Below, piece after piece: positions 60,101 through 63,100 of a stretch of DNA of 64,000 nucleotides. The DNA is taken from NCBI RefSeq assembly GCF_013167455.1, contig NZ_CP038328.1; one strand, 5' to 3'. This DNA is from Escherichia coli O157:H7. Lineage in GTDB: Bacteria; Pseudomonadota; Gammaproteobacteria; Enterobacterales; Enterobacteriaceae. The number at the start of each line of letters is the position of its first letter. Positions within the stretch are counted from its first letter, which is position 1. Made by a program: the position numbers.

Positions 60101-63100
60101 CAGTCAGGCGCGTACCGTTCAGATAAACGTAAGTAGCTGCGTTTTTTTCGGATGGAACAATTCCGTCAATGGCTGATGCGCGTAATAACAGTTCACCGCG
60201 AAAATCAATAAAACGGATAAATACACCTTGTGCATGCTCTTTGGTCATAAAGCACCTGTTATAAATCAGCCTGTTTAATAAAACTTTGCCCGCGAAGCAG
60301 ACGATCAACCGTGCGAAGTGCTTCGTATAATGTGAAATCCTGCCCGAAGTGATTGTCGCCGCAGTTCAATGCAAAAATGCGGTTCCCGGTAAACGGATTG
60401 CGTGGGCATTTGTGGACCACGATTCCAGCTTTCTCAATCAGCCAGGCATGTTCGCCGATTTGTTTTACAGCGTGGCCATCCGGTGTTGCATGCGTCTCGT
60501 TCAGGTTATAGCGACTGTTACTACGTGATGCACTGGTAGCGACGTGGTGTACATGGCGTTCTACGCCATTACGAAATTTGGAGTATGGATTATTAGCGTT
60601 TTTTTTCATGATGGTGCTCTGTTCATTGTTTTAGCTGTTAGCCAAAGCGTCTTTTAACATCGCCACAAGGTTTACTTCAGGCTTTTCCATTTTGGCGCGT
60701 TTGGGGCGGATAATAATTCGACCGTCAGCCAACATCTTTTTGCATGTATTAAGAGGGATACCTGTTATCTCTGCATATTTCTGCAGGGATACATAGGGGG
60801 CATTCACATTGATATTGATGGTTATACCTGACATCCCACTAGCCTCCTGATCAGGAAGATTTGTTTTGTTCTTTCTGGGTTAGCTCTAGGCCGCGAAGGG
60901 AGATCATGCGCGCCATGTTAGAGGATGAGCGTTGTTCTTTAGCTGCCATTTCATCAATGACGGCTCGCTCCTCGAGGGACAGCCGAAGTGCCAGTCTTGG
61001 ACCTGTGGCGGTGTTACGCGGAATGCGTGATCTGGTATCGTGAAGAACTTGTTTCATAGTGGTATATTGTGATCATCTAATAGCTCGTGAAATCATTTTG
61101 GTATCAAAAAAGATACCTGTCAAGGTTTTTGTATGAAAAATGATATTGGTCGGCGGTTGCGTGAGGAAAGGGAAAGATTGGGACTTAGTCAAGTTGCCAT
61201 GAGCGACATTGGTGGAGTCAAAAAGCTAACTCAGCTTAGATATGAGAAAGGAGATAGCTTTCCTGATGCTGCGTATTTGGCAGCGCTGTCTCGTTTTGGC
61301 CTTGATGTTCAGTATGTTGTGTTGGGAATTCACTCACCTGAAACTTATAACGATGATGAGCAGGAATTGATTACTCGCTTTCGAGCAGCTTCGTTAGATG
61401 TGAAAAACGCGGTGATTGGGGCTTTAAAAGGTGCGATCAGTGAAAAGGAAACTCAGCCATCAGGACGTGAGTTAAATATTTCTGGTGGTAATAACCGTAT
61501 CGCTGGTCGTGACTATAACGAAACTAAGGGTAGGTGATAGTAGGGAGGTGACATGGCCGTCAACTCAAACGGTTCAAACAATCGCGTTGCTGGGCGTGAT
61601 TTTCACGAAAAGAATATTCAGATAGAGCGATATGATGGTTCTCATACCGTCAATATCGCAATCCCTTCGAATAATGATGATGACGATCGCCCTTTGCTTA
61701 AGGCTCAGCGTAAGGAGCTAAATAGCTTGGTTGCTGCTATTGCAGAAGCTAGCAATACTGAAGCGTTTATTATTTGGCAAAAAGTACATGCGGAGATTGG
61801 TGTAGCTGGTATTGATGATATGACAGTAAATCAATATAAAACAGCGGAGAGTTTTCTGCATGCAATGCTTGAGCGATGTAAAGATCATGATGCCTGTAAG
61901 GCTCTTGTAAGTTTATTACTACGTAACAGTGAAGACTGTGGACTTCGACAAAAACTTCTGCGGTATTGCCATATCAATTTCGGTACAGGACGTTTAAACG
62001 ATCTTACTCGTTCTCAGTTACAGTCTGCATTGTCGTGGTTAGAGCAACAATCGGCATCAAGCCACATAGAGAGTTCGACCTTACCAGAAGTCCGACTTCG
62101 TGCTTCAGAATTAATCCGACTTTATCCAAAAGAAATAATATTCTTTATCTGCGTAGGGGTTTTGGTAGGCGGTGTCATTTCTAGGGCGTTTTTTAATTTG
62201 TAATCTTACTTGAGCTAAATTGAGGTAATGATATGAAAGTAAAAAAGGTTCAACTATTAGTTACTTTTTTATCTATGTTTTCTTTTTCCGCCGTCGCAAT
62301 GCCTTTTAAAACTATTGAACGTGAGAGTTTCAATGGGGTATGGCCATTTAATACTGATGAGGTTCAATTACAGTGTCTTGATGGTAATCCTTATGTGATG
62401 AATTTTGACGATAATAAGTTATATGCACTTACAGGTTTGGCTCGAATAAAAGGTAAAACATTTGGTGCGTTACCGTTAGATAACAATAATCCATTTTGGC
62501 TAGATAATGATGCCGCCCCAGGGTTAAAAAAGAGTCTGGGGGATGTCACTAAGGCTGCATTTGATTTATGTGATAAGTAACTAAAATGTCGGTTCGTAAG
62601 ATTCCATCAGGTAAATGGCTTTGTGAATGTTATCCCTACGGGGCATCGGGAAAACGCATTCGTAAACAGTTTGCGACAAAAAGTGAGGCGCTCTCTTATG
62701 AGCGCCGTTTAATGAATAGTAGAGTTGGAGACGAGTTTCAAGATGGTTCTGGTCCTCGTCTTTCTGAGTTGATTGCTCGTTGGTTTGAGATGTACGGTAA
62801 AACCTTGTCCTCTGGTGCAGAGCGCAAAGTCAAACTTGAGGCGATTTGTTCCAGGCTGGGAGATCCATTTGCTTCTCAGTTTGACAAAAATATGTTTGCT
62901 ACTTATCGGGAAAGAAGGCTATCAGGAGAATGGAATCCCAAGGGGAAGAAAAAACTTAGTGAAGCAACCGTTAATCGCGAGCAGTCATATCTACATGCTG
63001 TTTTTGCCGAACTGAAGCGCCTTGGGGAGTGGTCTGGTGAAAACCCCCTGACTGGTATTCGCAAGTTTCGTGAGGAAGAAAAGGAACTGGCGTTTCTGTA

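What the first reader, a model, noticed from the sequence alone, without database searches (positions are those of the whole stretch)
61020..61132. Compact lysis-lysogeny switch with repeated GGTAT(C/A) half-sites
The 75-bp divergent region between the early operon and the repressor gene contains a perfect palindrome GGTATC-N6-GATACC and two more GGTAT(C/A) half-sites upstream. These are candidate binding sites for the adjacent XRE repressor and define the immunity specificity of this element.
Basis: seen in the sequence. Interest (0 to 1): 0.3.

Follow-up and report, generated by a model that had tools for sequence, protein, structure and literature searches.

The report
Prophage repressor operator in promoter spacer
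The 18-bp palindrome is very likely the real docking site of the neighbouring repressor in a defective P2-like prophage of E. coli O157:H7, but the two extra "half-sites" are a promoter element and ordinary codons, and the true second site lies on the other side, over the repressor's start codon.

Summary
The window is E. coli O157:H7. The finding lies in the switch of the defective, leuZ-integrated P2-like prophage Sp13.

- **Palindrome (supported).** GGTATC-N6-GATACC (61100-61117) exists and fills the 17-nt spacer of a leftward sigma-70 promoter (TTGACA-17-CAAAAT). In 70 non-redundant homologous loci an 18-bp palindrome sits at this position, and its sequence tracks the repressor's recognition helix (24 classes; Mantel r=0.68, 0 of 20000 permutations). 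Two natural swaps change only the repressor's N-terminal helix-turn-helix (HTH) domain and the palindrome, while the Arc-like and Cox-like genes stay 93-100% identical. This is the operator, O1, and it sets immunity specificity.
- **Upstream half-sites (not supported).** GGTATA (61061-66) belongs to TGnTATATT, a conserved extended -10 for the repressor promoter, and is the same in every operator class. GGTATC (61034-39) is codons Asp7-Thr8 of the Arc-like gene, and a synonymous change removes it in relatives.
- **Second operator (new).** A degenerate O2 (61130-61147, 13/18 identical to O1) overlaps the repressor start codon. It is class-specific in 19 of 20 classes, about 31 bp from O1.

This is an ordinary mechanism in an uncharacterised P2-like switch type. 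Binding and transcription starts are inferred, not measured.

The parts
61100..61117 (.). O1: primary operator, the perfect 18-bp palindrome GGTATC-AAAAAA-GATACC
   Evidence: unique exact match in the window; an 18-bp palindrome sits at the same place in homologous loci and co-varies with the repressor's recognition helix; natural HTH-domain swaps change it while the RHH and Cox genes stay the same.
61130..61147 (.). O2: secondary, degenerate operator TGTATGAAAAATGATATT (13/18 identical to O1). It starts 30 bp after O1 and overlaps the repressor start codon and codons 2-5.
   Evidence: P=0.0002 in shuffles of the local region; 0.002 expected from the window-wide rate; in 19 of 20 operator classes the locus's own O1 matches this position better than other classes' O1 sequences; modal offset 31 bp; 17/18 identity in Halomonas loci.
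61118..61123 (-). -35 hexamer TTGACA of the leftward early promoter (Pe-like)
   Evidence: promoter scan. TTGAC(A/T) is nearly invariant in 70 non-redundant loci and always abuts the palindrome.
61095..61100 (-). -10 hexamer CAAAAT of the leftward early promoter, 17-nt spacer. Its first base is the first base of O1. The predicted start is near 61088.
   Evidence: profile C-A-n-(A/T)-A-T, with A2 in 69 of 70 and T6 in 69 of 70 loci. The start site is inferred, not mapped.
61060..61068 (+). Extended -10, TGGTATATT (TGn + TATATT), of the rightward repressor promoter (Pc-like). The predicted start is near 61075.
   Evidence: TG-n-TAT(A/G)(T/G)T is conserved in 36 enteric loci of every operator class; n varies (G, A or T). 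No own-class signal at this position. The start site is inferred.
61034..61039 (-). It is codons Asp7-Thr8 (GAT ACC) of the Arc-like gene and is judged not to be an operator.
   Evidence: reading frame; synonymous GGTGTC in L003 and L123; unchanged in L085 and L086, whose operator is GGTACG..
61122..61125 (+). Shine-Dalgarno sequence AAGG of the repressor gene, 7 nt before the ATG
   Evidence: Read from the sequence. AAGG/AAGA is conserved in the enteric loci.
61133..61537 (+). Immunity repressor, 134 aa: N-terminal five-helix XRE-type HTH (recognition helix about residues 31-39), two further helices, and a disordered tail. It has no S24 peptidase domain.
   Evidence: PMC2669165 states that the Sp13 repressor lacks the peptidase motif.
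60851..61057 (-). First early gene: 68-aa Arc-like ribbon-helix-helix (RHH) protein
   Evidence: PHROG 3431, E 4e-27, full length. Annotated 'Arc-like repressor' in phage 520873. Syntenic in relatives.
60631..60834 (-). Second early gene: 67-aa Cox-like excisionase/repressor
   Evidence: PHROG 575, E 1e-27.. Alignment.
61553..63587 (+). Rest of the lysogenic operon: 216-aa Flk_N-type membrane-anchored protein (61553-62203), DUF2511 protein (62233-62580) and tyrosine integrase (62586-63587)
   Evidence: the repressor-Flk_N-int order is conserved.

Best explanation
The region is the immunity switch of the defective P2-like prophage Sp13.

1. **Repression of the early promoter.** A dimer of the 134-aa XRE-type repressor binds the 18-bp palindrome O1. 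O1 occupies the whole 17-nt spacer between the -35 (TTGACA) and -10 (CAAAAT) of the leftward early promoter. Binding keeps RNA polymerase off and silences the early operon: the Arc-like RHH gene, the Cox-like gene, then the C4 RNA, the epsilon-like antirepressor and replication gene A.
2. **Repressor's own promoter.** The repressor is transcribed rightward from an extended -10 promoter, TGGTATATT (61060-68). That promoter faces the early promoter, with starts about 14 bp apart. This is the layout annotated for Pe and Pc in P2, so shutting off the early promoter should also relieve interference with repressor synthesis.
3. **Second operator.** A weaker copy, O2, lies three helical turns from O1 over the repressor's start codon. 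It probably adds cooperative binding and/or negative autoregulation by blocking read-through from the repressor promoter.
4. **Immunity specificity.** Half-site positions 4-7 of O1 and O2, together with residues of the recognition helix, set the immunity class.

**Status of each step**
- Shown by sequence comparison: positions, conservation and co-variation.
- Inferred: dimer binding, transcription start sites, interference, and the role of O2.
For: **Layout**
- The promoter scan puts O1 exactly in the TTGACA-17-CAAAAT spacer.
- In 70 non-redundant homologous loci, from Enterobacterales to Pseudomonas, Halomonas, Bordetella and Methylomonas, an 18-bp palindrome abuts TTGAC(A/T), and the -10 profile is C-A-n-W-A-T.

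**Co-variation with the repressor**
- The operator sequence follows the recognition helix: 24 helix classes, Mantel r=0.68, 0 of 20000 permutations reach it.
- Examples: KKLTQLR -> GGTATC; KKLTQLN -> GGTATA; RKQTQLK -> GGTACG; RKQAQLN -> GGTACTC; KKWTQIK -> GGTGTG.

**Natural swaps**
- L085 vs L087: repressor C-terminal part 100% identical, RHH 93%, Cox 99%. Only the HTH domain differs (80%), and the operator changes from GGTATC to GGTACG.
- L090 vs L094: RHH 100%, Cox 97%. The operator changes from GGTATA to GGTGTG.
- Window vs L091: RHH 51%, Cox 64%, and a recognition helix that differs only at T33A and K39Q. The operator is identical.

**O2**
- 13/18 identical to O1, P=0.0002.
- Own class beats the cross-class control in 19 of 20 classes, with a modal offset of 31 bp.
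- It accounts for the hypervariable residues 2-4 of the repressor.

**Protein and precedent**
- The HTH domain resembles P22 C2. By my recollection P22 C2 uses 18-bp operators.
- The annotated P2 record has the same topology.
- Sp13 early genes are transcriptionally inducible, and the element excises and replicates, so the switch is live (PMC2669165).
Against: - No binding, footprint or transcription-start data exist for this element. The searches of the held paper library that I ran found no paper on this switch type.
- The Pfam HTH scores are below the gathering cut-offs (24.1 vs 27 bits).
- The -10 hexamer CAAAAT is weak, and the leftward first gene has no obvious Shine-Dalgarno sequence.
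- The rightward promoter was not picked up by the consensus scan, because it has no good -35. It rests on conservation of TGnTATATT.
- Part of O2's resemblance to O1 in the enteric classes comes from ATG-AAA next to an A-rich operator centre.
- Related loci are not phylogenetically independent.
Confidence: 0.85

Rival explanations
1. One reading: four GGTAT(C/A) half-sites (61034, 61061 and the two palindrome arms) are all repressor sites, with the upstream pair acting as auxiliary operators.
For: All three TGGTAT copies point the same way. Two extra GGTATM copies in about 70 bp is unlikely by a naive count (P about 0.002). The GGTA core is shared by most enteric operator classes, so weak non-specific affinity cannot be excluded. 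About half of the enteric loci carry a TGGT(A/G) motif 19-22 nt inside the RHH gene.
Against: Neither site changes when the operator class changes. L085 and L086 (GGTACG operator) and the loci with GGTACTC, GGTATT or GGTGTG operators keep TGGTATATT. The invariant operator base G2 is A or T at 61062 in phage 520873, the GGTGTG-class loci and L158. The site at 61034-39 is lost through a synonymous change in L003 and L123. The family-wide test upstream of O1 gives own 5.06 vs control 4.87 with no positional peak.
Confidence: 0.08
2. The palindrome is the binding site of the Arc-like RHH protein or the Cox-like protein (a Cro-type lytic regulator) rather than of the XRE repressor.
For: RHH and Cox/Apl-type proteins do bind in phage switch regions. 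P2 Cox represses Pc, and the Apl sites of 186 lie between pR and pL (annotations).
Against: Loci with identical or near-identical RHH and Cox proteins (L090/L094: 100% and 97%; L085/L087: 93% and 99%) have different palindromes. Loci with divergent RHH and Cox (window vs L091: 51% and 64%) share the identical palindrome. The palindrome is also present in clades without the RHH gene (L095; Pseudomonas and Halomonas loci).
Confidence: 0.03
3. The palindrome acts at the RNA level, as a hairpin, terminator or translational switch in the repressor mRNA leader, and the copy at the start codon is an alternative pairing partner.
For: The rightward transcript would contain both arms and the O2 copy. 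In the GGTGTG class, the right arm CACACC can pair perfectly with the GGTGTG at the GTG start codon.
Against: The predicted leader 61075-61165 folds no better than shuffled sequence (z = -0.44), and the minimum-energy structure does not contain the hairpin. No T-run follows the palindrome, and no terminator was found. In O157 the alternative stem would be only 4 bp. Co-variation with HTH residues is not predicted by an RNA-only model.
Confidence: 0.02

Closest known systems
P22 C2 / 434 repressor-operator systems (lambda-repressor-like HTH dimers on dyad operators)
   Same: The five-helix HTH domain matches (profile hit to P22 C2 E 7.9e-6; Foldseek hits to P22 c2-operator complexes, target-normalised TM about 0.8). 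The operator is an 18-bp dyad with an A/T-rich, variable centre. There are tandem operators on one helix face. Specificity follows recognition-helix residues.
   Different: There is no S24 peptidase domain in Sp13, although Halomonas relatives have one. Instead there are two helices and a disordered tail. There are two operators rather than three, arranged around face-to-face rather than back-to-back promoters. The lytic regulators do not share the repressor's operators.
Phage P2 C/Cox switch (Pe and Pc face to face)
   Same: The phage family is the same (Peduoviridae; gpA, tail genes, P2-type integrase). The gene order repressor-...-int, divergent from the early operon, is the same. The early promoter's -35 lies next to the repressor start, and one operator sits in its spacer (P2 annotation). 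There is weak HTH similarity to P2 C (33% over 46 aa, E 8e-5). The repressor is not SOS-cleavable.
   Different: P2 C binds two 8-bp direct repeats that flank the -10 (PMC2995052 abstract). Here there is an 18-bp palindrome plus a second palindrome-like site upstream of the -35. An extra RHH gene precedes the Cox-like gene. The Cox-like protein has no BLASTP similarity to P2 Cox. The predicted transcript overlap is about 14 bp, against about 36 bp in P2.
Phage 186 CI/Apl switch
   Same: It is also a P2-like phage with convergent lytic and lysogenic promoters and an excisionase-type second regulator.
   Different: No similarity to 186 CI beyond a weak 39-aa match between the C-terminal parts (residues 98-134 vs CI 145-183, E 9e-4), and no BLASTP match of the Cox-like protein to Apl. 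There is no cII. No LexA box was found. No class-specific flanking operator sites were found within +/-900 bp.
P1 immI (C4 RNA-ant) and P4 epsilon derepression of P2
   Same: The Sp13 early operon carries a C4 antisense RNA and isrK directly upstream of a P4-epsilon-like 'derepression protein' (PMC2669165). This is a plausible route to inactivate a repressor that lacks a peptidase domain.
   Different: The module sits inside a P2-like prophage rather than in P1 or P4. Whether the epsilon-like protein targets this XRE-type repressor is unknown.

Membership tests
XRE / lambda-repressor-like HTH phage repressors with dyad operators (P22 C2, 434 type) | HTH_3-type five-helix DNA-binding domain | tested here: met
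   Pfam HTH_31 E 4.5e-5, HTH_19 and HTH_3 at about 1e-3, all below gathering score. The family profile hits P22 C2 at 7.9e-6. The AF2 model has helices 3-16, 20-27, 31-39, 46-53 and 59-64 (pLDDT about 90). Foldseek matches P22 c2-DNA complexes with target-normalised TM about 0.8.
XRE / lambda-repressor-like HTH phage repressors with dyad operators (P22 C2, 434 type) | Dyad-symmetric operator next to the repressor gene whose sequence matches repressor specificity | tested here: met
   There is a perfect 6-N6-6 palindrome. It co-varies with the recognition helix across 24 classes and in two natural domain swaps.
XRE / lambda-repressor-like HTH phage repressors with dyad operators (P22 C2, 434 type) | Operator overlaps the core of the repressed promoter | tested here: met
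   O1 fills the TTGACA-17-CAAAAT spacer. The promoter hexamers are conserved in 70 loci. The transcription start is not mapped.
XRE / lambda-repressor-like HTH phage repressors with dyad operators (P22 C2, 434 type) | Several adjacent operators filled cooperatively | tested here: inconclusive
   O2 is supported by sequence. Cooperativity cannot be tested with these tools.
XRE / lambda-repressor-like HTH phage repressors with dyad operators (P22 C2, 434 type) | C-terminal S24 peptidase domain for RecA-stimulated self-cleavage | tested here: not met
   No Peptidase_S24 hit. The C-terminal part is two helices plus a disordered tail. PMC2669165 also notes the missing peptidase motif. The 221-aa Halomonas relatives carry AG...GDSM...K motifs that I read as S24-like.
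XRE / lambda-repressor-like HTH phage repressors with dyad operators (P22 C2, 434 type) | Demonstrated sequence-specific DNA binding | not testable with these tools
   This needs EMSA, footprinting or ChIP.
P2-type lysis-lysogeny switch (C, Cox, Pe/Pc) | P2-like phage backbone with a repressor-...-int operon divergent from an early operon that ends in replication gene A | tested here: met
   Phage_GPA and P2-type Int_N/integrase. Tail sheath, tube and gpE genes. 98% identity to Peduoviridae phage 520873.
P2-type lysis-lysogeny switch (C, Cox, Pe/Pc) | Face-to-face promoters with overlapping transcripts | tested here: inconclusive
   The leftward promoter comes from the scan plus conservation. 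The rightward TGnTATATT rests on conservation only. The starts (about 61088 and about 61075) are predicted, not measured.
P2-type lysis-lysogeny switch (C, Cox, Pe/Pc) | Repressor is a member of the P2 C family | tested here: inconclusive
   BLASTP gives 33% identity over the 46-aa HTH region, E 8e-5 for the single comparison. P2 C (2xcj) is only rank 47 in Foldseek. This is distant at best.
P2-type lysis-lysogeny switch (C, Cox, Pe/Pc) | Operators are non-palindromic direct repeats | tested here: not met
   O1 is a perfect inverted repeat in every class. P2's O1 and O2 are 8-bp direct repeats (PMC2995052 abstract).
P2-type lysis-lysogeny switch (C, Cox, Pe/Pc) | cox is the first early gene and is homologous to P2 Cox | tested here: not met
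   The first gene is an Arc-like RHH and the Cox-like gene is second. There is no BLASTP alignment to P2 Cox, although PHROG 575 'Cox-like' matches at E 1e-27.
186-type switch (CI, Apl, CII, LexA-controlled Tum) | CI and Apl homologues, and an SOS-controlled antirepressor | tested here: not met
   Only a 39-aa C-terminal similarity to 186 CI (residues 98-134 vs CI 145-183, E 9e-4). No alignment to Apl. No LexA-box-like site near the epsilon-like gene or the switch.

The most novel reading that the evidence does not exclude
The switch has an induction route not yet described. The repressor's disordered C-terminal tail (NNRIAGRDYNE) is copied at the N-terminus of the co-transcribed, membrane-anchored Flk_N-type protein (NNRVAGRDFHE), and the two copies co-vary across clades. 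One reading is that the two copies compete for, or pair through, the same partner, so that repressor activity is coupled to a membrane or envelope signal. Together with the C4-RNA-controlled epsilon-like antirepressor, this could explain why Sp13 is induced by mitomycin C although its repressor has no peptidase domain.
Probability: 0.1. Interest if true: 0.6.

Novelty: new member of a known kind. Interest (0 to 1): 0.3.

Why it matters
**For EHEC biology.** This gives the first sequence-level model of the immunity switch of Sp13/CP-933T. In E. coli O157:H7 Sakai this defective prophage still excises, replicates and responds to mitomycin C by an unexplained route (PMC2669165). Knowing O1, O2 and the two promoters makes that question testable with reporters and point mutations.

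**For phage biology.** It defines a third, widespread P2-like switch type besides the P2 and 186 types. It combines the P2 topology with a palindromic operator and an XRE-type repressor.

**As a resource.** Comparison of about 70 loci yields a readable helix-to-operator code. For example, Leu32/Gln32 goes with T/C at half-site position 5, and Arg or Lys/Asn36 with C/A at position 6. There are at least nine naturally orthogonal repressor-operator pairs on an otherwise constant promoter scaffold, which could be used to predict immunity groups or as orthogonal genetic parts.

**Limits.** The mechanism itself is textbook, so the surprise value is modest.

Tried and rejected
- **RNA structure.** The predicted repressor mRNA leader 61075-61165 folds no better than shuffled sequence (z = -0.44), and no terminator-like site was found. 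Rejected.
- **Upstream half-sites.** Scanning 80 nt upstream of O1 in 70 loci with each locus's own half-site (both orientations) or full operator gave no enrichment over cross-class controls and no positional peak. Rejected.
- **Distal operators, as in the 186 FL/FR sites.** Scans of +/-900 bp found no class-specific sites. The 13/18 match at 60745-60762 inside the Cox-like gene recurs as GGTATC..GATACC in loci of other operator classes. It therefore reflects the coding motif ITGIP and not co-variation. Kept only as a note.
- **SOS control.** No convincing LexA box lies near the switch or the epsilon-like gene. The hit count equals the chance expectation.
- **Shared sites between switch and att.** The only shared 7-8-mer, TCGTGAA(A), lies outside the 63-bp att repeat. 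Not informative.
- **Literature.** Searches for CP-933T, Sp13, Xuanwuvirus, and P2-like combined with ribbon-helix-helix or with operator terms found no experimental work on this repressor or operator. Only the Sp13 induction study turned up.
- **RHH and Cox-like binding sites.** I could not assign them. The conserved block 61069-61091 (TTGTGATC...CGTGAAATCA) is a candidate only.
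Full report
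**Where this is.** The window is 100% identical over the switch to many E. coli O157:H7 chromosomes. The finding lies in a roughly 21-kb element between tRNA-Leu (leuZ) and yecA, bounded by a 63-bp direct repeat (42288-42350 and 63694-63756). The element has replication gene A, P2-type tail genes and a P2-type integrase. It lacks head genes and carries IS insertions. Its switch is 98% identical to that of Peduoviridae phage 520873. It is the P2-like defective prophage Sp13 of strain Sakai (CP-933T in EDL933, by my recollection). Sp13 has been shown to excise, replicate and raise early-gene transcription after mitomycin C, although its repressor lacks a peptidase motif (PMC2669165).

**Checking the observation.** All the motifs are present as described.
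- GGTATCAAAAAAGATACC is at 61100-61117, GGTATA at 61061-66 and GGTATC at 61034-39.
- The intergenic gap is 75 bp (61058-61132).
- The exact palindrome is unique in the window.
- One correction: GGTATC at 61034-39 is not in the gap. It is codons Asp7-Thr8 of the leftward ORF.

**Genes around the switch.**
- Rightward: a 134-aa XRE-type HTH protein, a 216-aa Flk_N-type membrane-anchored protein, a DUF2511 protein and the integrase.
- Leftward: a 68-aa Arc-like RHH protein (PHROG 3431, E 4e-27), a 67-aa Cox-like protein (PHROG 575, E 1e-27) and DUF4761. Further on lie a C4 antisense RNA, isrK, a P4-epsilon-like 'derepression protein' and gpA.
- RefSeq annotates a 45-aa plus-strand ORF in place of the RHH gene in O157. 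The RHH reading is better supported.

**The palindrome sits in a promoter spacer.** The promoter scan finds one site, on the minus strand: TTGACA (61123-61118), a 17-nt spacer, then CAAAAT (61100-61095). The palindrome is that spacer plus the first base of the -10.

**Comparative evidence for the operator.** I collected homologous loci in four ways:
- E. coli genomes;
- 80 loci from a species-representative genome set;
- 80 viral contigs;
- 11 contigs encoding chosen repressor variants.

Among them are 70 non-redundant loci, from Enterobacterales to Pseudomonas, Halomonas, Bordetella, Aeromonas and Methylomonas, in which an 18-bp palindrome abuts TTGAC(A/T). In those loci the hexamer 17 nt further on has the profile C-A-n-(A/T)-A-T, with A2 and T6 each present in 69 of 70.

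The palindrome sequence follows the repressor's recognition helix:

| Recognition helix | Operator |
|---|---|
| VKKLTQLRYEKG | GGTATC-N6-GATACC |
| VKKLTQLNYEKG | GGTATA...TATACC |
| (I/V)RKQTQLKYEKG | GGTACG...CGTACC |
| VRKQAQLNYEKG | GGTACTC...GAGTACC |
| VKKWTQIKYEKG | GGTGTG...CACACC |
| VGKTTQIKYEKG | GGTTCA...TGAACC |

A Mantel test across 24 classes gives r=0.68, and none of 20000 permutations reaches it.

**Natural swaps decide whose site it is.**
- L085 vs L087 (E. coli): repressor C-terminal part 100% identical, RHH 93%, Cox-like 99%. Only the N-terminal HTH domain differs (80%), and the operator changes from GGTATC to GGTACG.
- L090 vs L094 (Salmonella): RHH 100%, Cox-like 97%. 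The operator changes from GGTATA to GGTGTG.
- O157 vs Klebsiella aerogenes L091: RHH 51% and Cox-like 64%, with a recognition helix that differs only at T33A and K39Q, and exactly the same operator.

The palindrome therefore belongs to the XRE repressor's HTH domain, not to the RHH or Cox-like protein.

**The two 'upstream half-sites' do not hold up.**
- GGTATA (61061-66) is part of CATAGTG-n-TATATT. This is present in 36 enteric loci of every operator class. The hexamer TATATT is kept in 33 of 36 (TATGTT and TATAGT in the rest), the TG is kept, and only the 'n' varies (G, A or T). That 'n' is the second G of the supposed half-site, a base that never varies in real operators of the GG-starting classes. 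This is the signature of an extended -10 promoter (TGnTATAAT) for rightward transcription of the repressor.
- GGTATC (61034-39) is coding sequence. In L003 and L123 the synonymous change GAT->GAC turns it into GGTGTC while O1 is unchanged. L085 and L086 keep it although their operator is GGTACG.
- A family-wide scan of the 80 nt upstream of O1 shows no class-specific signal (own half-site 5.06 vs control 4.87; 12 of 20 classes; scattered offsets).

**A second operator on the other side.**
- Downstream of O1, each locus's own operator matches a position 30-32 bp after the O1 start much better than other classes' operators do. The mean is 11.7 vs 9.4 of 18, own beats control in 19 of 20 classes, and the modal offset is 31.
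- In O157 this site is TGTATGAAAAATGATATT (61130-61147), 13/18 identical to O1. Shuffles give P=0.0002, and 0.002 such sites are expected from the window-wide rate.
- It overlaps the ATG and codons 2-5. This explains why residues 2-4 are the most variable part of the N-terminal domain.
- It also explains why the start codon is GTG in the GGTGTG and GGTGCAG classes.
- Halomonas relatives have a near-perfect O2 (17/18). Their 221-aa repressors carry AG, GDSM and K motifs that I read as a LexA/CI-type S24 domain.

**Proposed mechanism.**
- Shown by comparison: O1 in the early-promoter spacer, O2 over the repressor start codon, conserved promoter elements, and class specificity.
- Inferred:
  - A repressor dimer on O1 excludes RNA polymerase from the early promoter.
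  - The repressor promoter starts near 61075 and the early promoter near 61088. They face each other, as in the annotated P2 switch, so repressing the early promoter should relieve interference.
  - O2, three helical turns away, adds cooperativity and/or blocks read-through for negative autoregulation.
  - The RHH and/or Cox-like proteins act on class-independent sites around the repressor promoter, for which the conserved block 61069-61091 is a candidate.
- The AF2 model (mean pLDDT 74; about 90 in the HTH domain) has a five-helix HTH with recognition helix 31-39, two further helices and a disordered tail. The closest solved structures include P22 c2-operator complexes.

**Comparison with known systems.**
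- It works like a P22/434-type repressor-operator pair placed in a P2-type face-to-face promoter layout.
- It is not a P2 C/Cox member in the strict sense. The operators are palindromic rather than direct repeats, an RHH gene comes first, and the Cox-like protein has no BLASTP similarity to P2 Cox. Similarity to P2 C is limited to 33% over 46 aa.
- It is not 186-like.
- The searches of the held paper library that I ran found no experimental paper on this switch type. Nilsson et al. 2011 (PMC3448106) analysed the P2 and 186 types and mention less common regulatory regions only as heterogeneous.

**Verdict.** The palindrome is a real operator and is very likely the immunity determinant (confidence about 0.85-0.9). 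The additional half-sites were mis-assigned. The true second site is O2. The mechanism is conventional, so interest is modest (0.3). The added value is a defined switch for an inducible EHEC prophage, a third P2-like switch type, and a helix-to-operator code.

Noticed in passing
window 58045-58132 (-), 58168-58242 (-), 57758-57988 (-): A C4 antisense RNA (RF01695, 78.5 bits) and isrK (RF01394, 63 bits) lie directly upstream of the P4-epsilon-like 'derepression protein' gene, inside the early operon of a P2-like prophage. This resembles the RNA-controlled antirepressor module of P1 immI. It may bear on the unexplained mitomycin C induction of Sp13. No LexA box lies nearby.
   Followed up: partly
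window 61478-61534 (repressor tail) and 61553-61615 (start of the next gene); also L029, L049, L008, L027: The repressor's disordered C-terminal tail (GGNNRIAGRDYNE) is repeated at the N-terminus of the downstream 216-aa Flk_N-type membrane-anchored protein (GSNNRVAGRDFHE). The codons differ, so both copies are kept at the protein level. The paired motifs co-vary across clades, for example Pseudomonas QQFNGPVGSVTSGDV and QQFNGAVEQVAAGDI. The two short repressors I checked (L067, L068) lack both the tail and the Flk_N neighbour. Function unknown.
   Followed up: partly
window 60906-61043 (+) versus 60851-61057 (-): RefSeq/PGAP annotates a 45-aa plus-strand 'hypothetical protein' in O157 genomes where the opposite strand encodes a full-length Arc-like RHH protein (PHROG 3431, E 4e-27). 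Gene callers also skip this ORF in several related contigs.
   Followed up: yes
window 60745-60762: TGTATTAAGAGGGATACC, 13/18 identical to O1, lies inside the Cox-like gene 355 bp from O1. Equivalent GGTATC..GATACC sequences occur in the cox genes of loci with other operator classes. It looks like a consequence of the ITGIP coding motif, but a role as a distal site in the GGTATC class is not excluded.
   Followed up: partly
window 42288-42350 and 63694-63756: A 63-bp direct repeat covering the 3' part of tRNA-Leu (leuZ) marks the two ends of the prophage (att sites). The element is about 21.4 kb.
   Followed up: yes
window 61070-61075: A TGATCA palindrome containing a Dam GATC site sits at the predicted start of the repressor transcript. 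GTGATC is conserved at this place in most enteric loci.
   Followed up: no
L034, L038, L055 (Halomonas): The same HTH family and the same O1/-35/O2 layout occur with a C-terminal part carrying AG, GDSM and K motifs that I read as a LexA/CI-type S24 peptidase domain (221 aa). The DNA-binding module and its operator architecture are thus shared between apparently cleavable and non-cleavable repressors.
   Followed up: partly
L067, L070, L037, L073, L082 (Pseudomonas), between the divergent gene start and O1: There are two or three tandem copies of TTCGTGTGAT with an 11-bp period, typical of binding sites for excisionase-type or Cox/Apl-type regulators. The enteric loci have looser GTGA repeats at the corresponding place (61040, 61070, 61087 in the window).
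   Followed up: no
window 45217-45333 (-), 52382-52498 (+), 51551-51749 (-): Two ALIL pseudoknots (IS3-family frameshift elements of the IS copies that disrupt the prophage) and an IS009 RNA match lie within the prophage.
   Followed up: no
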